Position numbers and translations under genes: made by a program. From Rhodoferax sp. (GTDB lineage: Bacteria > Pseudomonadota > Gammaproteobacteria > Burkholderiales > Burkholderiaceae_C): 39,858 nt of DNA. The stretch covers positions 1 to 39,858 of the forward strand of contig JALNWC010000001.1 in NCBI GenBank assembly GCA_023231075.1. Reading direction: 5' to 3'. Position 1 is the stretch's first letter. Each line of letters begins with the position of its first letter. The notes beneath the pieces were generated by a model. It made no database searches, was not told the origin of the DNA, and saw only the letters and a list, made by a program, of their open reading frames with translations. Positions 736-36,034 of the stretch are shown in pieces.

Positions 736-3429
736 TCAAAATGGCTCATCGTCACTGCCCTCGTTTTCGCCGCCTGCGTTGGGCGGGGTCGGGGGTGCGC
801 TGGCACCCTCCTCTTCATCAATCGCTGGTGGCCACACCGACGGCTGCTTATATCCCCGTCTGCGCTGGCCGGTGCTCTCGCGGCCATAACCCCAGCCGTG
901 GGCTTCCAGCCAGCCCCGTATCTGGCTTTCCAGCAAGCTGCTGGATTTGGCTGCATCTGCGCCCAGGGCGCTCACCAGCCGGTCGAGCGTGATGAACGTC
1001 GTGTGCTGGTTCAGGTCATTGGTCACCTTGCTCTCGCTGGCCGGTGCGCCTTCGCGGGTCAGCAGCTCATACAAGCGGCTTTGCACGGCAGTTTCGACCA
1101 GGCGCAGCTTTTGTTCGGGCTCGAAATACGCCTCTTCTTCCTCGCGCGTGGGGGCATAACGTTCATGCGCCAGGTAAGCCTTGAGCGCTTCGGCAAACAA
1201 CTGGCTGCGCCACTTTTGCAACCATTCCAGCTTGATCTGCTGATCAATCCATATCGGCCAAAAACGCCGGTTACCGGTCAGGTCATACAGGTACTGCTTT
1301 TTGTTGGTGCTGCAAAATATCACGCATTGCCGTGGATGCGCCTGCACATACTTGCCATAGGCACCCCGAAAACGATCCACCGTGGAGCTGAAAAACTGCT
1401 TGACCTGCTCGGAGTCCGCTTTGCGCAGAGCCGTCAACTCGCTCAGCTCATAACCCCACAGGCCCTCAAGCTGCTCGAAGCCATCCTTGCCATTGCCGAT
1501 GTCAAAGTGTGTGTCGGAGAAAAATTCAGCACCCACCAGCGTCTTGACGAACGTGCTCTTGCCGACACCCGGCAGGCCCTCGAAAACCGGCGAATAGTCA
1601 AACTTGCAGCCGGGATCCATGACGCGCGCCACCAGGCCAATCAGCAGGTAGCGGCCCACCAACTCAAGGTACCGCTTGCGCCGTGGTGACATGGTGGCCG
1701 GGTCCATGCCCAGCACATAAATCAGCCAACGATCCAGGCGCGGCTTGTCATCGTGCACCTGATCGTGCAGGTAGTCCTTGATGGGGTGATACCGGTTTTG
1801 ATCAGCCACGGTTTCAATGGCCTCGCTCAAGGCGGCGCGTGATGCTGCCTTGAGCTTGTAGGTGCTGCACAGGTAGTCACCCAACCCCAGATCGTCGGTG
1901 TCCTTCAGCGGCCCGGCCACAGCCCGCCAAGGCCAAGGCACGCGCGTGCCAGGCGCCCCGGTCAGCTCGTTAAAGCCAAGGCAGTCCTTCAAATCCGGCG
2001 CTTTGCGCAAGGCGGCAATCAACAGCTTGCGATTCACGCCCAGCTCGTGCACCTCGCAGTCCAGCTTGTCACACAGAAACGCCAGGTGGTCGGTAAATGC
2101 GTCGTTGATGCCCCCCGCCCCCATAGCGTTAGCTGGCGCCGCGCCAAAATTACCACCTTTATCCCCACCAAAAGGGGCCGCAGGCTTGCCAGGATGGGCG
2201 CTCTTGGCTTCTTCGGTGTTGCCCGATGGCAGAGGCTGCGATTGGCCGAAAAACGCCAAAACACGCGCGCCGTCCCAGCCGTCGGTGGTGATGGCATCCG
2301 CGCAATCCCACCCTGCGGGCACTTCGAGCGGCTGGGGAATGGGCAGCAGCTGCACACTGCAGCCATGCGTGTCGCGCAGAATTGCGCCAATGCCCAGCAT
2401 AGCTGCCATGCCAGGCTGTTTGGTCACTGGCAGCAGCGGCTTGGACTGCTCAAGCACGGCACGGGCCAGGTCATCAGGGCACGCGGCACGCTCTTTGGGG
2501 GTAAGTTTTTCACGATGGGCATCGCAGTCGGGCCACAACAGCACCGAGCAGCCCGCCAACCATGACCAATTGGCTTTCTTCCACGCGTTGCTGCCACCGG
2601 GCCAGCTGCACACCAGATAAATGCCGGGGGCGTATGCGTCGAGCAGATCCTGCAGGATGCCCGCTTTTTTCTCGCCCTCGACCAGCACCACAGTGGCCAG
2701 CGGCTGGCCCAGGTCGCCAGAAAATTCAACCGGTGATTTTTTTGACGGAAAGTACAGCGGCCGGGGCTCGGCAAAGGTCTTGTTCAGCCACTTCATGGAC
2801 CCGTCACGATCGCTCTTGCACCAGGTGAATGGCAGCGGCAGCTTACCGCCCTGACTGCGCATGACACGCACGATGTAGCCGTAAAGCGCGGAATCCATTC
2901 GGTATTCGGCCACGTGCTCGATATTCGACTGGTCGTAATGCGAATGGTGAAACCTGAACAAGGGGGCGAAGTCAGGCACCGGGGCCATGACCTCCCACTT
3001 CTCATCGGGCTTTTCCGGGGCGACTTTTGGCGGCTCAGGCCGGGGTGGCTTGACAAGCACCGTGGCGTCACCATGGGCAAGCGTGACGCCGGCAATGTCT
3101 TCCAGGCCTTCCTCGCGCGCCAGGGTCACTGCCGCCATGACGTTGCCCAGGCCATGAATGGCGCCGTAAAGGCTGATCAGGTCGCCGCCCTTTTCGCCCG
3201 TTGCAAAGTCAGCCCAGCAGCCCAGCCCTTCCTTGCCGGTCACATTGACGCTGCAAGAATCGCCCTTGCCTCCAGACAGCGACCCACACTTGTATTCCTT
3301 TCCTTCTTTTTTGCCTCCCGGCAACCACCCTTTAACGAGCTGTTCAATTCGGCCCAACAGCGCTGCATTGAGCGCCTCGTATTTGGGCGGCGGCAATGGC
3401 GCACGCTCAATCATTGACCGTCCCGGCAA
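736..3429 (-). CDS. DNA primase-helicase (N-terminal primase/TOPRIM-like region plus VirE/VapE-type P-loop ATPase)
   Basis: 897 aa. VLVEGEKKA and WPDCD TOPRIM-like motifs, Walker A GLPGVGKST, ELSEL, and YLYDLTGNRRFWP typical of the virulence-associated E family. Confidence 0.88.
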   Translation of the reverse strand: MPGRSMIERAPLPPPKYEALNAALLGRIEQLVKGWLPGGKKEGKEYKCGSLSGGKGDSCSVNVTGKEGLGCWADFATGEKGGDLISLYGAIHGLGNVMAAVTLAREEGLEDIAGVTLAHGDATVLVKPPRPEPPKVAPEKPDEKWEVMAPVPDFAPLFRFHHSHYDQSNIEHVAEYRMDSALYGYIVRVMRSQGGKLPLPFTWCKSDRDGSMKWLNKTFAEPRPLYFPSKKSPVEFSGDLGQPLATVVLVEGEKKAGILQDLLDAYAPGIYLVCSWPGGSNAWKKANWSWLAGCSVLLWPDCDAHREKLTPKERAACPDDLARAVLEQSKPLLPVTKQPGMAAMLGIGAILRDTHGCSVQLLPIPQPLEVPAGWDCADAITTDGWDGARVLAFFGQSQPLPSGNTEEAKSAHPGKPAAPFGGDKGGNFGAAPANAMGAGGINDAFTDHLAFLCDKLDCEVHELGVNRKLLIAALRKAPDLKDCLGFNELTGAPGTRVPWPWRAVAGPLKDTDDLGLGDYLCSTYKLKAASRAALSEAIETVADQNRYHPIKDYLHDQVHDDKPRLDRWLIYVLGMDPATMSPRRKRYLELVGRYLLIGLVARVMDPGCKFDYSPVFEGLPGVGKSTFVKTLVGAEFFSDTHFDIGNGKDGFEQLEGLWGYELSELTALRKADSEQVKQFFSSTVDRFRGAYGKYVQAHPRQCVIFCSTNKKQYLYDLTGNRRFWPIWIDQQIKLEWLQKWRSQLFAEALKAYLAHERYAPTREEEEAYFEPEQKLRLVETAVQSRLYELLTREGAPASESKVTNDLNQHTTFITLDRLVSALGADAAKSSSLLESQIRGWLEAHGWGYGRESTGQRRRGYKQPSVWPPAIDEEEGASAPPTPPNAGGENEGSDDEPF

Positions 3430-16202: not shown

Positions 16203-16996
16203 TATTCCCCCACGTCCATATAGCCGTCTGACTCAAGCGCATAGTAATTGATGTAGCGCACCACAAAAGGCACCGCACCCACATAAGCCCGATGTCCTGG
16301 TCGCAGTAGCCAGTCAATGGCGCATCGCACCCGCAAACCAGAGCCACTGCTGATAGAGCGCACCCCTGCAAGCTGGCGGTCGTAGGCCACAGGTGGGTCG
16401 ATGCTGGATGCGAAGGCGTCAGGGTAGCCGCTCATGGTGCAGGTGTAGCGCTGCGGACCCTGGTTGTACCGTGCCTGCTCAGTAGCAGAGCGGGCCATCT
16501 CGTACTCGATGGTCAGCGCCGTGCCTGGCACGTCGGCACACCGGAAAATCACAAATTCGGTCGCGGCGTTGATGACGTTCACCCAATTCAAGCAGGCGGG
16601 CACCACACATTGCACATAGCTGCTCGACCCGCTTTGCAGCGTCGCCTGCCAGCTGCTGATGGGCACGCGCACCGTGCCGGTTGGCGTGATCAAGTCCATT
16701 ACCCAACGGGTAACAGCATCGCCCAGCGCGGCGCTGAAGTCATGATTAATCAGCGCAGCACCAGAACCCAGTGGGCCGGTGGCGGCCATGCTGCCCACAA
16801 TAATCGTGTTACCCAGCACCGCACCATACCCCAGCGGTCCGGTGGCGTCCGTGCGGACCACAATAACTATGTTACCCAGCACCGCGCCAGCCCCCAGCGG
16901 GCCGGTCGCTTCAATGCGCGCCAACGGGTAAGGAACGCCACTATCAGCCGGCGCACCTAGGGCGGACTCACCAATGGATGCACTGCCCAGGCTCAT
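16202..16996 (-). CDS. tail protein (hub-like), hypothetical
   Basis: 264 aa in the tail module with three ATGPLGxGAVL repeats. Confidence 0.6.
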   Translation of the reverse strand: MSLGSASIGESALGAPADSGVPYPLARIEATGPLGAGAVLGNIVIVVRTDATGPLGYGAVLGNTIIVGSMAATGPLGSGAALINHDFSAALGDAVTRWVMDLITPTGTVRVPISSWQATLQSGSSSYVQCVVPACLNWVNVINAATEFVIFRCADVPGTALTIEYEMARSATEQARYNQGPQRYTCTMSGYPDAFASSIDPPVAYDRQLAGVRSISSGSGLRVRCAIDWLLRPGHRAYVGAVPFVVRYINYYALESDGYMDVGE

Positions 16997-16999
16997 GGC

Positions 17000-17608
17000 T
17001 TACGGCCCAATGAGCGTTTGCTGCTCAGGTGCCACCAGGCTGATGCGCAGCGGGTCGTTGTTGGGCGACAGCAGCACAGCGTCTGCCGGTATCAGGCCGA
17101 CTTCTTGCAGTGCCCGGAAGGTGAACGGGTTGCTCATGGCGTTGTGCAGCTTGGCTGGTGACGGCCTGCCGTTGGCGATAATTTCGGCCTGGATCTCGCG
17201 CCCGACCACGGCGGTGAACTCGTTGGCGGCGTTGGCCTCGAACATCTGTTCGTCGGTGTAGCCCGGGATGCGCGTCGGTTCGGCAATATCAGAGTACTCT
17301 TTCAGCAAGCGCTCAAGACAGGCGATCTCTTCCTCATTCTGACGGAATGACTCCTCCTGCACGGTGTGAAACGATTCCAACTCCAGGATTTCGGCTGTTA
17401 GGTTGAGGATCAAACAGGGCCGTGCGTCGTTGTTTTTCAGGTCTTGCAGCTCTGCAAGTTTCGCTTGATACTTGAGTGCTGCCACCTGTTCCAGCACCGC
17501 TGCGCGCTTGCGGCCCCCGAGAAACTCCTGCAGCGTCTTGATCTTGGCCCAGACAGTTTCGCCGAGGACCTGGTAACGGTAGTTGAATTCTGAATTGAGT
17601 CTTGCCAT
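17000..17608 (-). CDS. helical protein coupled to the repeat tail protein (possible chaperone)
   Basis: 202 aa, starts 2 nt after the repeat-protein stop, coiled-coil-rich. Confidence 0.65.
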   Translation of the reverse strand: MARLNSEFNYRYQVLGETVWAKIKTLQEFLGGRKRAAVLEQVAALKYQAKLAELQDLKNNDARPCLILNLTAEILELESFHTVQEESFRQNEEEIACLERLLKEYSDIAEPTRIPGYTDEQMFEANAANEFTAVVGREIQAEIIANGRPSPAKLHNAMSNPFTFRALQEVGLIPADAVLLSPNNDPLRISLVAPEQQTLIGP

Positions 17609-17610
17609 GT

Positions 17611-19191
17611 TTATGCTCCGATGCTCGCAGCGGCCAGCAGGCTCCGTGCGGTGCCGACACCGGTTGTGTCAGCTGCGACAACACCGGTATTGGAGACCAG
17701 GTTGGTCATTGATACTGCGTTGGTGCCGTCGCCCGTAGCGCCATAGCCGAATATGGCTTTGCCGGTGCCGATGCTCGCCGCAGCGATGCCATGTCTGGCG
17801 GTGCCAACGCCGGTTGTGTCGGCTACAACAACACCGGTATTGGAGACCAGGTTGGTCATTGATACTGCGCTGGTGCCGCCCGTAGTGCCATAGCCGAATA
17901 TGGCTTTGTCGGTGCCGTAGCCTGCTGCGGCGAGGTTGTACCGTGCGGTGCCGACACCGGTTGTGTCAGCTGCGACAACGCCGGTATTGGAGACCAGGTT
18001 GGTCATCGATACATTGATGTAGACATCATCGTTGTAGCCATAGCCGAATATGGCTTTGTCAGCGCCGTAGCCTGCAGCGGCCAGCTGGCGCCGTGCAGTG
18101 CCAACGCCGGTTGTGTCGGCTGCAACAACACCGGTATTGGAGACCAGGTTGGTCGTGGATGTGAAGCTACCGTAGCCGAATATGGCTTTGTCGGTGCCGT
18201 AGCCTGCAGCGGCGCGGTAAATCCTTACCGATCCAACGCCGGTTGTGTCAGCTGCAACAACACCGGTATTGGAGACCAGGTTGGTCGTAGACATCTGGCC
18301 GTTCGTGGCGTTGTATCCGTAGCCAAATATAGCGCGGCCAACGCCGTAGCCTGCTGCGGCCAGACCATACCTTATTGAGCCGACCCCAGTTGTGTCAGCC
18401 ACAACAACGCCCGCGCTAGAGACGAGGTTGGTCGTCGATACAGCATTGGTGCCGCCCGTGGTGCCATAGCCGAATATGGCATAAGCAGCCCTAATCCCGA
18501 ACGCATTTAATTTCCGGCCGATCAGGTAGACCTTGAGCCCGGCCCCGGCGAACGTGGAGCCGACGGTGTCAACGTCGACTGACACCTCCGCGTCGTCGCT
18601 CAGCTCTGGGTCGCTAATAACCACGGCCGCGGTGGCCGTGGTGCTGGTCTTCTCCGAGTCGTCAATCGTCAGCTTGGTGGACAGGATCGAAGTTCCGGCT
18701 TCGTTGATGTCGACGGTCAGCAATGAGCCTGTTGGCGCTGCGTTCACGCTGGCTCGCACCGCCGTGAGCGTCATTGCGAACGGCGTCCTGACTGTCATTT
18801 TTCCCGCACCCGTCGTCAACGCCGTCGTCTCATCAGATACAACTAGCGTGATCACACTCTCGACTGCCGCGGCGACTTGCACCGCGGGCATAGAGATGAA
18901 CACCTGCTTGGTGCCCGCCTCAAAGCTCACCGCCTCATCGCTGCTACTGCTACTGGTGACGGTGGTGCGCGTCAGGGTATTGGCTGCACTGTAGGTGCCC
19001 AGGCCGCACTCCCATTCGCCCGTGGGCGTGCCACCCGCATCCACCGCCTGAATGGCATAGTACAGTGTGTCACCCACGGCGCAACGCGCGCTGAACGCAC
19101 TGAAACCCGTCATGGCCCCAGCCAGCGTGATGTCGCCCGTGCCAGTGCTGGTGCTGGTTTCCTTGACCCGGTCGGCAATGATGAACGTCAT
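17611..19191 (-). CDS. tail fibre / receptor-binding-like protein with six Kelch-like C-terminal repeats
   Basis: Anchor-like N-terminus IADRVKETSTSTGTG. Six ~44-50 aa units AIFGYG-x(n)-TNLVSNTGVVAADTTGVGTARxxLAAA. Confidence 0.75.
   Translation of the reverse strand: MTFIIADRVKETSTSTGTGDITLAGAMTGFSAFSARCAVGDTLYYAIQAVDAGGTPTGEWECGLGTYSAANTLTRTTVTSSSSSDEAVSFEAGTKQVFISMPAVQVAAAVESVITLVVSDETTALTTGAGKMTVRTPFAMTLTAVRASVNAAPTGSLLTVDINEAGTSILSTKLTIDDSEKTSTTATAAVVISDPELSDDAEVSVDVDTVGSTFAGAGLKVYLIGRKLNAFGIRAAYAIFGYGTTGGTNAVSTTNLVSSAGVVVADTTGVGSIRYGLAAAGYGVGRAIFGYGYNATNGQMSTTNLVSNTGVVAADTTGVGSVRIYRAAAGYGTDKAIFGYGSFTSTTNLVSNTGVVAADTTGVGTARRQLAAAGYGADKAIFGYGYNDDVYINVSMTNLVSNTGVVAADTTGVGTARYNLAAAGYGTDKAIFGYGTTGGTSAVSMTNLVSNTGVVVADTTGVGTARHGIAAASIGTGKAIFGYGATGDGTNAVSMTNLVSNTGVVAADTTGVGTARSLLAAASIGA
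17614..18480 (-). repeat. six tandem coding repeats of ~130-150 bp
   Basis: CCGGTATTGGAGACCAGGTTGGTC occurs five times, plus one diverged copy. Confidence 0.9.
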
Positions 19192-27789: not shown

Positions 27790-27841
27790 CCTGACTTTAA
27801 AAAAATCAGGCTGTCTCAAATAGGGCAAATTGAGACGACTT
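27790..27841 (-). promoter_or_regulatory. late promoter candidate, copy 1 of a 52-bp exact repeat
   Basis: Dyad GTCTCA-N12-TGAGAC, then -10-like TAAAGT 8 nt before the protease ATG. Identical to 35983-36034. Confidence 0.75.
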
Positions 27842-28156: not shown

Positions 28157-28609
28157 TTACAGCCCCAGCTTGGCTTTTTCGTCCCGGCTCCATTGCCGGC
28201 ATGCCTCGACGTAGTCGCCAAACGCCAGAAGCTCAGCTTGCTCGCCCGGCTCAAACGTATAAGCCCCCAGCGCAACACCTACGCCAATGCGCGCAAATTT
28301 TGCCTCGTCGCTCATGCTGTAGCGGCCGCGGATTTGTTGTTCGGTGCGCTCGTAAATCAGTTGCACATGCGGGCTGGCCGCTTTGATGCGCGCCACCAGG
28401 TCATCACCCAGCGCCACCGGCTGTGGGTTGATCTCGCTCGGTTGCGTGGGCAGCGTCAATCCATCCGGCACGGCCACGTAGGTGGTGCCGTCAAGCGTGC
28501 ACAACTCGGTGCAGCGCAGGCTGTCGTCCGCGCCCTGGTTGTCTGGCAGCGCCATTTGAATGATGGTGTGCGGTGTGGAAAACTTTTGGTAGGCGTAGAT
28601 AGAGGTCAT
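28157..28609 (-). CDS. hypothetical protein downstream of DGR RT (possible fibre-assembly factor)
   Basis: 150 aa, AAGGA SD, IRGRYSMSDE...YVEACR. Its 5' 119 bp overlap the RT 3' end. Confidence 0.7.
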   Translation of the reverse strand: MTSIYAYQKFSTPHTIIQMALPDNQGADDSLRCTELCTLDGTTYVAVPDGLTLPTQPSEINPQPVALGDDLVARIKAASPHVQLIYERTEQQIRGRYSMSDEAKFARIGVGVALGAYTFEPGEQAELLAFGDYVEACRQWSRDEKAKLGL

Positions 28610-29561
28610 GGTGCTTTTCCTTCAGGTAAGTTAAAAGTGGTTTAAACGAGCAGGTGCGCCGTGCATGTCCCAGGCGCGACACCACGCCCTCCATGCGGTC
28701 ACGGCGGGCGTCGGTGCGCATGGCGCGGATGACGTGCGGGCGCACAAAACGCCCGCACGCCCAGGTGCGAAATCCGCAAAAGTTGGCTCCCCGTTTCACC
28801 GGGTGCAGGCTGTAGTGGCTGATCTCCAGGCCCAGCCCAGCCAGGTGCGTGCGTATGGCCGCCAGCCAGGCGGCACCGGTGGTGCGGTCGGGGGCCAGCA
28901 TGATGCTGTCATCCATGTAACGGCCATAGTGCGGCACCTTGAGGGTGCGCTTGCAAAACTGGTCGAGGCTGTTGAGGTAGATGTTGGCAAAGGTCTGACT
29001 CATCAAGTTGCCAATGGGCACGCCGGTGGGGCTGTCGCGGTGAGCAAACATGGCTAGCAGCGCCAGGGTGTCTTGGCACTTGATGACACGCGCCAACAGC
29101 GCTTGCAGGGTGTCGCGGTCGATGCTGTAAAAAAACTTGCGCACATCCACATGCAGCACCCATGCGCTGCGCGGGGCCTGGCGAATCACGCCTTGCAGCC
29201 AGTCGGCGGCCTGGTGCGTGCCACGGCCCACGCGACAGGCAAAGCTGGTGTCGATGTAACGGCGCTCGAACAACGGGGCGATGACGGCGTACACCGCATG
29301 TTGCACTACCAAGTCGCGGAACGCCGGCGCTTCAATCAGACGTGGCTTGCGGCCGTCTGTCACCCAAAATCGGTTGCATGGCTTCGGTTTATAGTTTCCG
29401 GTTCGCAACTCGCGCTCCAACGTGTCCAGGTTAGTGCCCAGGTTGCGGCCAAACTCAAAACAGGCACGGTGGCTGCGCTTGCGGTCACCGGCTTTGTGGA
29501 ATGCAGCCAGCAGCGCGGCTTGCGTGCAGATGTGCGGGTACAGGTTTCCAGTGCGTTTCAT
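28491..29561 (-). CDS. brt: DGR reverse transcriptase
   Basis: KPRLIEAPAFRDLVVQHA, DVRKFFYSID, GVPIGNLMSQTFANIYL (DGR-type SQ motif), YGRYMDD. No maturase or endonuclease domain. ATG at 29561 (MKRTGNLY). Confidence 0.95.
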   Translation of the reverse strand: MKRTGNLYPHICTQAALLAAFHKAGDRKRSHRACFEFGRNLGTNLDTLERELRTGNYKPKPCNRFWVTDGRKPRLIEAPAFRDLVVQHAVYAVIAPLFERRYIDTSFACRVGRGTHQAADWLQGVIRQAPRSAWVLHVDVRKFFYSIDRDTLQALLARVIKCQDTLALLAMFAHRDSPTGVPIGNLMSQTFANIYLNSLDQFCKRTLKVPHYGRYMDDSIMLAPDRTTGAAWLAAIRTHLAGLGLEISHYSLHPVKRGANFCGFRTWACGRFVRPHVIRAMRTDARRDRMEGVVSRLGHARRTCSFKPLLTYLKEKHHDLYLRLPKVFHTAHHHSNGAARQPGRGRQPALHRVVHA

Positions 29562-29825
29562 GGGCAGATGGCCTTGGCGATCATGCGCATACGCATCCAA
29601 TGCAAGCATTTCTCAGTCACAGCACTGGGCATCAGCGCCACAAACAAGAGCGCAGCAAGAAACACCGCGACTTGAAATAACGCGACAAACCCAATTTTCG
29701 CAAGGGCAGCAACACGGCTGGCGACAGCTACCGAAGGGGTTTGTTGCAAAACATTTCGCCGCAAGGCACGACGGAGGCTCCCTCTTTGCCAGACGGTACA
29801 CACCGCATGAGGCGTATATGGCATA
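29562..29825 (-). other. DGR spacer between TR and RT, structured RNA candidate
   Basis: Pairing arms GCAACAAACCC (29737-29747) and GGGTTTGTCGC (29682-29692). TGCCA...TGGCA hairpin directly after TR. Confidence 0.55.
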
Positions 29826-29946
29826 GAGTCGCAGGCAAAGCCAACGTTGTTGTTGGCGTTCGTCCGGTTGTTGTTGAGATTGCGATTGCGAGACCCGGCA
29901 TTGCTGCCGTTGTTCCAATTGCCACGAGAAATCACACAGAGCATGT
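29826..29946 (-). ncRNA. DGR template repeat (TR)
   Basis: 121-bp copy of VR with 13 AAY codons. All 17 mismatches to VR are at TR adenines. Confidence 0.96.
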
Positions 29947-30368
29947 TAAGCCTCCACCGCATTCTGGGGCGTGAGCCCCTGAATTTCTGACCTGACCCAG
30001 CCACCAATCATGCGGCCCAGTTCGTCCACCATTTTCAAAATAGTCAGGAAACGGTGCGCGCCCGGCTCCTTCGCATCCTTGCGGCTCAGGCTGTAGTTGA
30101 ACAGCCCCATTTCATTGGCCAGGTGAATCATCATGCGCAGCTGCTCGTGGCGCACGTCCAGTTGGGTCAGGCTTGTTTTTTTGAAGTACCGTTTTTGGCA
30201 CTCGGTCACCAGGTTGTAAACGTCCAAAAACGCTTGCCGAATGCCTTGCGTTAGGGTGTATTTGTGGCAGTTGGGAAAGTGGGCCAGGTAGCCCTCCAAC
30301 TGCACCGCAAACAGCACCAGCTTTCGGTGCAGTCCGGCCTCAGCATGAATGGATGTTTTTTGTGCCAT
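29946..30368 (-). CDS. avd: DGR accessory variability determinant (Avd, four-helix bundle)
   Basis: FPNCHKYTLTQGIR...KKTSLTQLDVRHEQLRMMIHLA...VDELGRMIGGW, between VR and TR. Confidence 0.93.
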   Translation of the reverse strand: MAQKTSIHAEAGLHRKLVLFAVQLEGYLAHFPNCHKYTLTQGIRQAFLDVYNLVTECQKRYFKKTSLTQLDVRHEQLRMMIHLANEMGLFNYSLSRKDAKEPGAHRFLTILKMVDELGRMIGGWVRSEIQGLTPQNAVEA

Positions 30369-30376
30369 GGTGGGTT

Positions 30377-30402
30377 TGTCCTTATCGCTATCGCTCAGGA
30401 CA
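30377..30402 (-). other. hairpin downstream of VR (candidate retrohoming recognition element)
   Basis: TGTCCT-GAGCGATAGCGATA-AGGACA, 2 nt after the target stop codon. Confidence 0.6.
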
Positions 30403-30404
30403 CA

Positions 30405-32216
30405 TTACAAATACGAGGCGCAGGCAAAGCCAACGAGGTTGCTGGCGGCCGACCGGTAGCTGTCGAGATGGCGATTGCGAGACCCGGCATTGCTGCCGAG
30501 GTACCAACCGCCACGAGAAACCACACAGAGCATGTCCACAATCCTTTGGTTAAAGCGATCGGTGCCCATGGCGTTGCTGCCTGCGGTACTCATGCCGGCT
30601 GCGGCGGGCAGGCCCAGCATCGCCAGCGCGCGGCCGTTGGCGGTACTCATGTCAAACACGGCATTGGCACCATTGCCATACCGCTGGTCATAAATATTGT
30701 TGGGGTACGTGGTGGCAAAGTTGAGCGTGACCGCATCAAACTGCGCCGCCACGCCCGTGGCACCCCAGTGGTCGGTAGCCAGCGTAACGCCTGATGTCAC
30801 GGCGGCAATGTCCACCGACTCTTTCAGCGTGTAAAACGTGCCGTTGGCGACCGTGCCGCCTGAGGTCCAGGCGGTAAACGCCGTGCCATCCACGCCGTTG
30901 AGCGTGATCGTGTTGGCATCCACTACGGTGACCACGTAAATCTTGCCGTTAAGCTGCGTCATGCCCGCCACAGCGTCAATCTGCACATAGTCACCCGTGG
31001 TGCGGCCATGCGTGGCCACAGTGAGCGCCACCGGGTTGGCCTGGGTGGCGCCGGTGATGGCCTTGCTTGTGGCAATGCACGTCAGGCCTGGGTTGATCTT
31101 GTAGATGTTGCCTGCCACGTCGGCAATGCCGCAAGCCTGGCCGTTGTGGGTGGTGCGCGCAAATACCGAGCCGCTGCCGGTCTTGGCAAAGTAGGGTACC
31201 GTGGTGGCGCCTGCGCTGGTGAACGTTACCGCGCCAGCGCCGTTTTGCAGCACGTCGGCCTCTGACTTTAGCGCGCTGTTGTCATTGCCCTTGGGGTAGT
31301 TTCGCACGCCGGTAGCGTCGTACCAGGCGCAGTAGGTGGCGCTGGTGGCAGCTTGGGCAATCCAGTCGCTGATGTCGCTTAGGGCGGAGGCGATGAACAC
31401 GCTTTCCGGGAAAAACTTGTTGCCCCGGCTCTTGGCCGCTTGCAGCGCGCCATAGTAAAAATTGCCCGGCGTCTGGCCGTTGGCAGTGCAGCCGACAAAA
31501 CCAATCTGCTGCGACACCGTGCCGGTGCCTGTGCCCACACCTGTGGCGGTAAAGCGCAGGCCAACGGTGTTGCTGGCAGCGCCGATCAGGGTAAAGTCCG
31601 TGGTGCCCACCGACAAAATGGTGTACACCCGCGCCGCCACCGTGGCTGTGGCGGCTTCGGGTTGTGGCCCGGAGACCATGGGCATCACATTTGGGAGGCT
31701 ACTGGCGATGGTGCCGTTTTGCGAACAGTCGTATTTGTCGCGGAAAAAACCGGGTTGAACGGCGCCTGCGTTGATGAATGCGCGGTGGCGGTAGTAACCC
31801 TCGGCATTGGCGGTGGCGTCGTCAGGGAAAGTGTCGATGGCCACAATGCTGACACTGTTGACACCATAGATTCCATAAGTGGGGTTGTCAGGATGGCCGC
31901 GGCGAATCCAGAATGCCGGAACCCACACCGTGATGGAGCCGTCCCGCACATACTGGTAATTTCCGTAGTTGGCAGACAACACATCGCTGTAACCTGGCAG
32001 CGGCAGGTAGCCGTCAGGCAGGGCGGGGCAAATTCCAACGCCGGAACCGGCGGCGCCGGGGGTGCCGATGTTGTTGGCTGGCGTTGCACCAAAAGCGTCA
32101 AGCCAACTAATGTCAAGCCGCGCATTTGCGTCCGCCACAGGGCTGCGCCCGGCGGCGGCGGTCAAACTTGAGGGGCGGTAGCCGTGGGCGTTTAATTGTC
32201 CGTGGTTGATGCTCAT
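30405..32216 (-). CDS. DGR target protein (Mtd-like, C-type lectin/FGE-type fold with C-terminal VR)
   Basis: GFFRDKYDCS, THNGQACGIADVAGNIY, and C-terminal SRGGWYLGSNAGSR...VGFACASYL. ATGA-coupled start at 32216. Confidence 0.92.
   Translation of the reverse strand: MSINHGQLNAHGYRPSSLTAAAGRSPVADANARLDISWLDAFGATPANNIGTPGAAGSGVGICPALPDGYLPLPGYSDVLSANYGNYQYVRDGSITVWVPAFWIRRGHPDNPTYGIYGVNSVSIVAIDTFPDDATANAEGYYRHRAFINAGAVQPGFFRDKYDCSQNGTIASSLPNVMPMVSGPQPEAATATVAARVYTILSVGTTDFTLIGAASNTVGLRFTATGVGTGTGTVSQQIGFVGCTANGQTPGNFYYGALQAAKSRGNKFFPESVFIASALSDISDWIAQAATSATYCAWYDATGVRNYPKGNDNSALKSEADVLQNGAGAVTFTSAGATTVPYFAKTGSGSVFARTTHNGQACGIADVAGNIYKINPGLTCIATSKAITGATQANPVALTVATHGRTTGDYVQIDAVAGMTQLNGKIYVVTVVDANTITLNGVDGTAFTAWTSGGTVANGTFYTLKESVDIAAVTSGVTLATDHWGATGVAAQFDAVTLNFATTYPNNIYDQRYGNGANAVFDMSTANGRALAMLGLPAAAGMSTAGSNAMGTDRFNQRIVDMLCVVSRGGWYLGSNAGSRNRHLDSYRSAASNLVGFACASYL
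30415..30535 (-). repeat. DGR variable repeat (VR)
   Basis: Aligns without gaps to TR at offset 589 and encodes the last ~40 residues of the target. Confidence 0.96.
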
Positions 32217-32494
32217 TGCTTCACCCACGCGGTTTCGCTGGTCAAAAGGCCGGCGGTGTAGCCAAAGGTTTTGACCCAGGTCCCGACGCCGTCTGTGGCC
32301 GTGTCTGTGGTCAGATCGCCACCTGTGAAACCGTAGATGTGGCTACAGGCGTCCGGATTAAAAAGCGCCCCGGTGGAGTCTGGTACTAACGATCCTCCTC
32401 CCGCGTAGGCCTGGCCGGTGGCGGGGTCGAGTAGCACGACGGCTTGCGGGCTCAAGGTGCGCGTGGCACCAGGTACATCAATAAATTCAGACAT
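32213..32494 (-). CDS. small structural-like protein coupled to the DGR target
   Basis: GGAG SD, MSEFIDVPG...WVKTFGYTAGLLTSETAWVKQ, ATGA overlap with the target. Confidence 0.65.
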   Translation of the reverse strand: MSEFIDVPGATRTLSPQAVVLLDPATGQAYAGGGSLVPDSTGALFNPDACSHIYGFTGGDLTTDTATDGVGTWVKTFGYTAGLLTSETAWVKQ

Positions 32495-35982: not shown

Positions 35983-36034
35983 CCTGACTTTAAAAAAATC
36001 AGGCTGTCTCAAATAGGGCAAATTGAGACGACTT
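35983..36034 (-). promoter_or_regulatory. late promoter candidate, copy 2 of the 52-bp exact repeat
   Basis: Identical to 27790-27841. Lies right after the Mor-like gene and upstream of gpW. Confidence 0.75.

What the first reader, a model, noticed from the sequence alone, without database searches (positions are those of the whole stretch)
29558..29955. TR sits in a plausible translated ORF with a TM-like helix, coupled between avd and RT
Seen: avd ends ...GGTGGAGGCTTAACATG. A GGAGG SD lies 6 nt before an ATG (29944) that opens the TR in the VR reading frame. The frame stays open for 128 codons through the whole 264-nt spacer and encodes a hydrophobic stretch (IGFVALFQVAVFLAALLFVALMPSAV). 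It stops at 29558 in an ATGA overlap with the RT start, and the RT has no obvious SD. Established: TR is normally treated as non-coding RNA. Inference: translation across TR could couple RT synthesis to avd, or switch the RNA between mRNA and template roles, or give a membrane peptide carrying the unmutated Asn-rich VR. TRs are often stop-free in the VR frame, so the open spacer, SD and ATGA overlap are the informative parts.
Basis: partly seen in the sequence, partly recalled or inferred. Interest (0 to 1): 0.75.

Follow-up and report, generated by a model that had tools for sequence, protein, structure and literature searches.

The report
Hidden reading frame across DGR template
In this phage's targeted-mutation cassette (a diversity-generating retroelement), the supposedly non-coding template RNA holds a reading frame that dozens of related cassettes keep open from the end of the helper gene to the first codon of the reverse transcriptase, so ribosomes likely read through it and likely tie production of the enzyme to that of its helper.

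Summary
An ATG one base after the avd stop opens 128 codons across TR and spacer and ends on the RT start. In this locus alone that could be chance (5%). Among relatives the frame is open in 45 of 46 spacer clusters (12.3 expected), and 19 of 23 spacer-length changes keep the register. Other lineages reach the RT start by other overlaps or other frames. One lineage fuses TR-spacer to RT (24 of 29), mostly without an RT ATG. The BPP-1 group keeps a hidden frame through avd, TR and spacer (27 of 39 vs 2.3). Distant DGRs lack this (3 of 24 vs 3.4). The peptide is barely constrained (pN/pS 0.73), and the TM-like stretch is a private insertion. The 'SD' is also the avd strand of the covarying RNA duplex needed for reverse transcription. 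Most likely this is a ribosome conduit coupling RT synthesis to Avd, and possibly an mRNA/template switch. Translation is inferred from evolution, not measured. The papers I read call TR non-coding; I found no report of this in print or in earlier notes of this scan.

The parts
30405..32228 (-). DGR target gene, 607 aa, with the C-terminal VR
   Evidence: ORF; C-terminal half matches phrog_2889, middle matches Pfam E1_FCCH and phrog_584
30415..30536 (-). Variable repeat (VR)
   Evidence: Repeat D3; 18 differences from TR in 122 nt, all at TR adenines
30372..30403 (-). Hairpin-like inverted repeat just after the target stop (likely the target-recognition cruciform; not tested)
   Evidence: Seen in the sequence; role by analogy to BPP-1 (PMC3240598, passages)
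29946..30368 (-). avd, 140 aa
   Evidence: Pfam bAvd-like PF22296, 45 bits, cut-off 40
29948..29960 (-). avd strand of the avd:spacer duplex (cPRT Stop equivalent); contains the GGAGG SD-like site of the TR ORF
   Evidence: RNAalifold columns 9-21 pair with 192-204; the 13 pairs are 96.7% paired, 5 with two-sided changes
29826..29947 (-). Template repeat (TR)
29558..29944 (-). TR-spacer ORF, 128 codons: ATG 1 nt after the avd stop, stop overlapping the RT ATG; likely ribosome conduit
   Evidence: conserved frame
29788..29813 (-). 5' spacer stem-loop (position of the BPP-1 Avd-binding stem-loop; binding not tested)
   Evidence: RNAalifold columns 159-184, one pair with 21 two-sided changes among 44 sequences
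29758..29780 (-). Spacer strand of the avd:spacer duplex (29780-29768) and the following 3-bp tetraloop stem (29767-29758), followed by adenines
   Evidence: same layout as the BPP-1 cPRT Stop (bioRxiv 10.1101/2023.10.23.563531)
29570..29680 (-). Lineage-private extra ~105 nt at the 3' end of the spacer (boundaries approximate); in frame, stop-free, folds as a G/U-rich hairpin, encodes most of the hydrophobic stretch (29695-29618)
   Evidence: Only the window and L001 have it; no source found in the own genome; fold
28491..29561 (-). DGR reverse transcriptase, 356 aa, YMDD motif
   Evidence: RVT_1; homologues start Met-Lys at the same place

Best explanation
The TR and spacer of this DGR carry a conserved open reading frame from just after the avd stop to the RT start codon, which ribosomes likely translate so that RT synthesis is likely coupled to Avd synthesis, with the peptide itself likely a by-product. 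Shown: the frame, its start and its end on the RT start are conserved, and the same RNA has the conserved folds needed for reverse transcription. Inferred steps: (1) a ribosome that finishes avd re-initiates at the ATG 1 nt downstream; (2) it crosses 250-390 nt of structured RNA that would otherwise isolate the RT start; (3) it terminates on the RT start codon and re-initiates there. The SD-like site is the avd strand of the duplex required for cDNA synthesis, so a translated copy would be unfolded and only ribosome-free copies would serve as template (more speculative). My odds: translation under selection about 0.9; coupling as the main purpose about 0.7.
For: Inner clade (mostly RT 56% or more identical, plus L051/L159 at 42-44%; 66 unique TR-RT stretches from 92 loci with a TR): spacer open in the TR frame in 45 of 46 clusters vs 12.3 expected; other sense frames 1 and 18 of 46. 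In the hypervariable 3' spacer: 0 stops in 927 codons vs 28 and 7 in the other frames. 23 minimum spacer-length changes on the RT tree, only 4 alter length mod 3 (binomial P 1.7e-6, rough). ATG in all 66, 1 nt after the avd stop in 59 of 64 with avd located, while the VR has ATG there in 1 of 59, so the ATG is not a VR legacy. Where the RT starts Met-Pro-Lys or Met-Arg-Arg the register shifts to the stop at +5 or +8; TTG/GTG RT starts keep the overlap; some lineages use a non-VR frame that still ends on the RT start. Outer ring (<55%): 34 of 55 clusters coupled or fused vs 5.8 expected. Fused lineage: RT frame open across TR in 24 of 29; 22 of 24 have no ATG, and 10 of 24 no ATG/GTG/TTG, within 90 nt of the RT N-terminal motif; 0.6 expected open. 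The TR peptide matches positions 7-41 of PHROG RT family phrog_1423. BPP-1 group: 34 of 39 clusters have a frame running to the RT start vs 8.1 expected. In E. coli the BPP-1 operon with a TAATAA-bearing TR gave little activity until an RBS was put before brt (100-fold gain; PMC12875486 section 6); this fits, but the authors attribute it to the missing RBS and did not test coupling.
Against: No direct translation data. 22 of 102 RT clusters of the combined set are not coupled by my ATG rule (a few have GTG starts or stop-restart relays). My prediction that uncoupled RTs have stronger SDs failed: medians -5.65 vs -5.9, P 0.26; at 75% clustering they were weaker, -3.3 vs -5.7. Coupled RTs often have their own SD-like site. 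Distant DGRs show nothing (3 of 24 vs 3.4). In Bordetella, BPP-1 donor plasmids whose TR carried two tandem stops still homed (PMC3240598, passages), so read-through is not essential there, at least from a plasmid promoter. Relatives are not independent, and the shuffle nulls ignore shared ancestry; the tree count only partly corrects this. L100 in the inner clade is broken twice.
Confidence: 0.68

Rival explanations
1. TR and spacer are translated, but mainly to keep ribosomes on the transcript so that Rho, a weak terminator or RNases do not cut it off before the RT gene (anti-polarity); hand-over of ribosomes at the RT start is secondary.
For: It explains frame conservation without peptide conservation and any-frame solutions. 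A hairpin with a U-rich tail lies in the spacer at 29773-29757. Coupled RTs often have their own SD.
Against: The ORF ends within -4 to +8 nt of the RT start in 75 of 102 clusters, more exact than coverage needs, and fused RTs exist. TR is not C-rich over G on average (34.4 vs 34.5). Terminator-like sites in the region are no more than chance (6 vs 5.7).
Confidence: 0.13
2. The main purpose is a switch: ribosome traffic melts the avd:spacer duplex and keeps most transcripts from serving as template, which limits or times mutagenesis.
For: The TR-ORF SD lies inside the 13-bp covarying duplex; its unpaired probability is 0.01-0.32 in 12 loci tested. The duplex is essential for cDNA synthesis in BPP-1. 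Moving the TR RNA out of the operon raised activity 35-fold in E. coli (authors credit higher RNA and RT levels).
Against: A switch would not need the stop to sit on the RT start. The duplex position is fixed by the RT mechanism anyway, so overlap with the SD may be unavoidable rather than selected.
Confidence: 0.11
3. The ORF encodes a functional membrane peptide that displays the unmutated Asn-rich VR.
For: Kyte-Doolittle 19-residue maximum of 2.76 in the window peptide. The private ~105 nt stayed in frame and stop-free.
Against: Only 6 of 98 family peptides reach 1.6 (median 0.76); spacer pN/pS is 0.73 vs 0.16 for RT in 24 close pairs; no third-position excess in the spacer; non-VR frames are used elsewhere; no Pfam match.
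Confidence: 0.04
4. No translation: the open frame is a by-product of an A-poor, structured spacer and of shared ancestry.
For: In one locus the chance is 5-17%. The ATG and GGAGG lie in a conserved RNA element, and ATGA follows from Met-Lys.
Against: RNA structure does not explain indels in multiples of three, also inside hairpins, the same spacers carrying 78 and 41 stops in the other two frames, register shifts that track the RT start sequence, or RTs without their own start.
Confidence: 0.04

Closest known systems
Bordetella phage BPP-1 DGR (mtd-avd-TR-Sp-brt; NC_005357)
   Same: Same gene order, adenine-only TR/VR differences, bAvd-family accessory gene, and the avd:Sp duplex plus tetraloop stem and adenines (cPRT Stop) and 5' spacer stem-loop described by cryo-EM (bioRxiv 10.1101/2023.10.23.563531, parts 1-3 of 5 read).
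   Different: BPP-1 TR and Sp are described as non-coding (PMC6182149, passages; PMC5758913: 'The TR is not translated in vivo'). BPP-1 has no ATG at the TR 5' end and its VR frame stops 31 nt before brt. It has instead an unannotated 541-codon frame from a GTG 26 nt into avd that runs into brt. The RTs are 38.5% identical.
Translational coupling by termination-reinitiation at overlapping stop/start codons, and leader/upstream ORFs whose translation rather than product matters (general knowledge, recalled; no call)
   Same: One-base gap and ATGA-type junctions; conserved frame with poorly conserved peptide; a downstream start next to RNA structure.
   Different: Here the coupling ORF lies on the functional template RNA of a retroelement, spanning the template and the RT-binding folds. 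No sensing codons or attenuator logic were found or tested.
Phage DGR RTs annotated with a TR-derived N-terminus (PHROG phrog_1423 profile)
   Same: The TR peptide matches profile positions 7-41, as expected for TR-spacer-RT fusions like those.
   Different: The window's ORF is in another frame than the RT and ends on its start. The match shows gene calls, not expression.

Membership tests
Diversity-generating retroelement (BPP-1-like) | RT gene of DGR type | tested here: met
   RVT_1; best phage matches include BPP-1 brt, 38.5%; tree rooted on Brt
Diversity-generating retroelement (BPP-1-like) | TR/VR pair differing at TR adenines, VR at the 3' end of a target ORF | tested here: met
   18 of 18 differences at TR adenines; VR ends the 607-aa ORF
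Diversity-generating retroelement (BPP-1-like) | Avd accessory gene | tested here: met
   PF22296 above cut-off
Diversity-generating retroelement (BPP-1-like) | avd:spacer duplex with stem-loop (cPRT Stop) | tested here: met
   97.3% of cells paired, 0 of 500 shuffles as high, slid controls 44-66%
Diversity-generating retroelement (BPP-1-like) | TR:spacer template-primer duplex | not tested
   Not predicted by RNAalifold and not counted separately
Diversity-generating retroelement (BPP-1-like) | Ongoing mutagenic retrohoming | not testable with these tools
   The VR bears past adenine changes; the runs laid were contigs of mostly 90-95% identical relatives
Translationally coupled upstream ORF | Start and stop abut or overlap the neighbouring genes, conserved | tested here: met
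   59 of 64 with a 1-nt gap to avd; 61 of 66 in the ATGA-type register, one of 66 with a stop in the spacer
Translationally coupled upstream ORF | Selection on the reading frame (no stops, indels of 3n) | tested here: met
Translationally coupled upstream ORF | Downstream gene lacks independent initiation | tested here: inconclusive
   Weak SD in the window (-3.0), family median -5.9; uncoupled RTs are not stronger; RT start unpaired probability 0.15-0.65 in 12 loci
Translationally coupled upstream ORF | Ribosome occupancy, and dependence of RT output on upstream translation | not testable with these tools
   No ribosome data; no holder on record as RNA
Small membrane protein gene | Conserved hydrophobic helix under amino-acid selection | tested here: not met
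   6 of 98 peptides hydrophobic; pN/pS 0.73

The most novel reading that the evidence does not exclude
In a large part of phage DGRs, the prototype BPP-1 included, the 'non-coding' DGR RNA is translated. Ribosomes must cross TR and spacer to make RT (by coupling, by a hidden frame overlapping avd, or as a TR-spacer-RT fusion protein), and the same traffic unfolds the duplex needed for priming, so translation sets both the RT:Avd ratio and the share of transcripts that become templates. This would be a built-in, so far unrecognised control of mutagenesis rate.
Probability: 0.45. Interest if true: 0.85.

Novelty: new variant of a known kind. Interest (0 to 1): 0.72.

Why it matters
The papers I read treat TR and spacer as non-coding, and how RT is expressed from avd-TR-RT operons is unexplained: the BPP-1 brt has no clear RBS (PMC12875486). 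A conserved ribosome path through the template gives a testable answer. It adds a reading-frame constraint to TR/spacer evolution and suggests how transcripts are split between mRNA and template roles. It also warns that engineered TRs carrying stops or frame-changing deletions may silently lower RT output in native-order cassettes, and that some RT start codons are mis-annotated. The hidden frame in BPP-1 can be tested in the existing E. coli reconstitution.

Tried and rejected
Membrane-peptide reading: rejected. ATG as an inherited VR Met: rejected, the VR has ATG in 1 of 59; the window is that one case, probably because homing extended 5' (inference). 'Uncoupled RTs have a stronger SD': not supported. 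C-rich Rho site in TR: not supported on average. Universality: rejected, 3 of 24 distant DGRs vs 3.4 expected (5 loci dropped for no RT ATG found, 3 for spacers under 30 nt; RT starts there are estimates). Origin of the private ~105 nt: no match beyond 21-26-nt chance-level hits in the fetched loci or the own genome. Rfam: two matches far below gathering score. Expression: no RNA holder listed; four runs laid held contigs of mostly 90-95% identical relatives and cannot show translation. A scan with the L117 RT found no relative. Of 23 class-level genome loci other than the window's own, 4 showed an upstream TR/VR pair; they entered only the distant test. Rows left out before the inner count: L049, L080, L090, L114, L116 (RT match at the contig edge), L092, L106 (truncated), L094 (TR replaced by other sequence). 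L203, L221 and L234 were left out (truncated or no anchor). One search's 58 rows included mis-anchored ones, so I cite the filtered set (50 unique, 39 clusters). Four papers were not held. No structure prediction was run, as the peptide is not conserved.

Full report
Setting. The window is contig C1 of genome G000 and is phage-like: portal, head protease and major head protein match PHROGs. On the minus strand lies a complete DGR: target 32228-30405, VR 30536-30415, avd 30368-29946 (PF22296), TR 29947-29826, spacer, RT 29561-28491 (RVT_1). TR and VR differ at 18 of 122 positions, all TR adenines.

Observation. All stated features are present: avd stop, 1 nt, ATG 29944; GGAGG 6 nt upstream; 128 open codons; TGA overlapping the RT ATG; a hydrophobic stretch. 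In this locus alone an open spacer arises in 5.4% of shuffles (17% in any frame), and ATGA follows from an RT starting Met-Lys, so homologues had to decide.

Close relatives. Scans with the RT gave 71, 80 and 21 loci. I took 94 of them with RT identity of 42% or more and upstream DNA, plus the window; 92 had a TR and gave 66 unique TR-to-RT stretches. All 66 have ATG at the TR 5' end, 1 nt after the avd stop in 59 of the 64 where avd was located. The VR has ATG at that place in only 1 of 59 (GAG 37, CAG 16), so the codon is kept on the template side only. The spacer is stop-free in this frame in 45 of 46 clusters (90% identity) against 12.3 expected; the other sense frames are open in 1 and 18 of 46 and hold 78 and 41 stops. 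In the most variable 3' part there are 0 stops in 927 codons against 28 and 7. ATG-to-ATG distance ranges from 241 to 383 nt and is 2 mod 3 in 61 of 66. On the RT tree, 23 minimum spacer-length changes include only 4 that alter the register (binomial P 1.7e-6, treating changes as independent). The five exceptions: L051/L159 end at +5 in an RT starting Met-Pro-Lys; L008 ends at +8; L117 is in frame with RT and also has a second frame from an ATG overlapping the avd stop to the RT start; L100 is broken.

What is not conserved. The hydrophobic stretch comes from about 105 extra nt seen only in the window and L001 (99% RT identity); the nearest other relative, L002 (91%), lacks it. Six of 98 coupled peptides reach a 19-residue hydropathy of 1.6 (median 0.76). 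In 24 close pairs pN/pS is 0.73 for the spacer, 0.29 for TR and 0.16 for RT, and spacer columns show no third-position excess (0.61, 0.64, 0.63 bits in the core). The frame is selected; the peptide hardly is.

RNA structure. RNAalifold on 44 sequences pairs the last 13 nt of avd with a spacer segment, followed by a 3-bp tetraloop stem and adenines: 97.3% of cells paired, 6 of 16 pairs with two-sided changes, 0 of 500 shuffles as high, slid controls 44-66% (related sequences can beat such shuffles, so the slid control carries more weight). This matches the cPRT Stop of BPP-1, whose avd strand is required for cDNA synthesis (bioRxiv 10.1101/2023.10.23.563531, parts 1-3 of 5 read). It varies (TGGAGG in 16 of 46) yet keeps SD strength (-5 kcal/mol or better in 44 of 46) and is mostly paired in folding models. 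The stretch is therefore dual-coded: folded RNA and open frame.

Wider family. An alignment-based scan kept the best 80 of 503 viral loci, ranked by likeness to L051, so this ring is a biased sample. Of 102 RT clusters in the combined set, 75 are coupled (stop at -4 to +8 of the RT start), 5 fused and 22 neither; in the outer ring (<55% identity) 34 of 55 against 5.8 expected. Solutions differ: stops at +1, +5, +8 or -4; TTG or GTG RT starts; frames other than the VR frame (L199, L204, L246, L260 and kin); a pair where a 1-nt shorter spacer still ends at -4 (L222, L243); stop-restart relays in L211 and L255. In one lineage the RT frame runs back through spacer and TR in 24 of 29 unique loci; 22 of these 24 have no ATG and 10 no ATG, GTG or TTG within 90 nt of the RT N-terminal motif, with 0.6 expected open by chance. 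Unless they use rarer or internal starts, those RTs can only be made by reading through TR. The TR peptide also matches the N-terminus of PHROG RT family phrog_1423.

BPP-1 group. BPP-1 has no ATG at TR and its VR frame stops 31 nt before brt, but the brt frame is open from a GTG 26 nt into avd (541 codons, unannotated). In 39 RT clusters related to Brt, some frame runs from the avd stop to the RT start in 34 (8.1 expected), and the -1 frame of avd is stop-free from +40 in 27 (2.3 expected from synonymous shuffles; control RT blocks 2 of 78 vs 1.1). Many have ATG or GTG near +26 behind a GA-rich stretch, although this could also follow from a conserved Cys codon. Distant DGRs show no such signal (3 of 24 vs 3.4).

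Mechanism. Shown: conserved start, frame and end, and conserved RNA folds. Inferred: ribosomes leaving avd re-initiate, cross the structured RNA and hand over at the RT start, tying RT to Avd synthesis (0.68). The exact end point and the fusions favour this over mere mRNA protection (0.13). A template/mRNA switch is structurally plausible but untested (0.11 as main purpose). Against coupling: uncoupled RTs do not have stronger SDs; about a fifth of clusters lack it; BPP-1 donors with tandem stops in TR still homed in Bordetella (PMC3240598, passages). Compatible with it: in E. coli such an operon was nearly inactive until an RBS was added before brt (PMC12875486, section 6), which the authors ascribe to the missing RBS.

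Literature. Wu et al. state that TR is not translated in vivo (PMC5758913, passages and section 16); Handa et al. call TR and Sp non-coding (PMC6182149, passages). Nine searches and keyword passages of PMC4372165, PMC3575424, PMC6642488, PMC6602519, PMC5703328, bioRxiv 2025.03.24.644984 and 2026.06.12.731847 showed no report of a translated TR or of coupling through it. Subscription papers, four papers not held and all supplements were not seen, so priority is not settled. Four look-ups in earlier scan notes showed other DGR findings but not this one. What I say about translational coupling in general is recalled.

Verdict. An ordinary DGR by membership, with a real and apparently unreported layer: a selected reading frame through its template RNA. 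New variant of a known kind; interest 0.72.

Noticed in passing
L176 (NC_005357.1) 1756-3381, minus strand: BPP-1 has an unannotated 541-codon frame from a GTG 26 nt into avd, through avd (-1 frame), TR and Sp into brt; the avd part is stop-free in 27 of 39 related clusters vs 2.3 expected. It deserves its own study.
   Followed up: partly
L200, L223, L253, L369-L405: A lineage of phage DGRs in which TR and spacer are fused in frame to RT (24 of 29) and RT mostly lacks its own ATG; five relatives (L395, L397, L401, L403, L404) have a separate start.
   Followed up: partly
window 27790-27841 and 35983-36034: Exact 52-nt direct repeat with internal inverted symmetry, one copy just before the head-protease gene and one before the small gene upstream of the portal; possibly a duplicated late-promoter or activator site. 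Lysis-like genes and the DGR sit between portal and protease.
   Followed up: no
window 30531-30536: Here the VR matches TR further 5' than in relatives and has taken up the TR ATG (1 of 59 VRs), suggesting that cDNA or recombination extended into the avd stop region.
   Followed up: partly
L002 and L023, TR: These TRs look partly mutagenised themselves (Asn codons replaced), as if VR or cDNA sequence had been copied back into TR.
   Followed up: no
L094 2180-2500: Relative with 71% identical RT in which TR and the 5' spacer are replaced by unrelated sequence; only the 3' spacer remains.
   Followed up: no
window 28491-28609: The RT 3' end overlaps the next ORF (28609-28157, 150 aa, no PHROG match) by 119 nt.
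   Followed up: no
window 17591-18480 and 16746-16934: Imperfect tandem repeats of about 147-150 nt (6 copies) and 63 nt (3 copies shown) inside long minus-strand ORFs.
   Followed up: no
G000:C407:1794-2585 and G000:C382:1616-2341: Two further, distant RT-like genes (31-32% identity) in the own genome.
   Followed up: no
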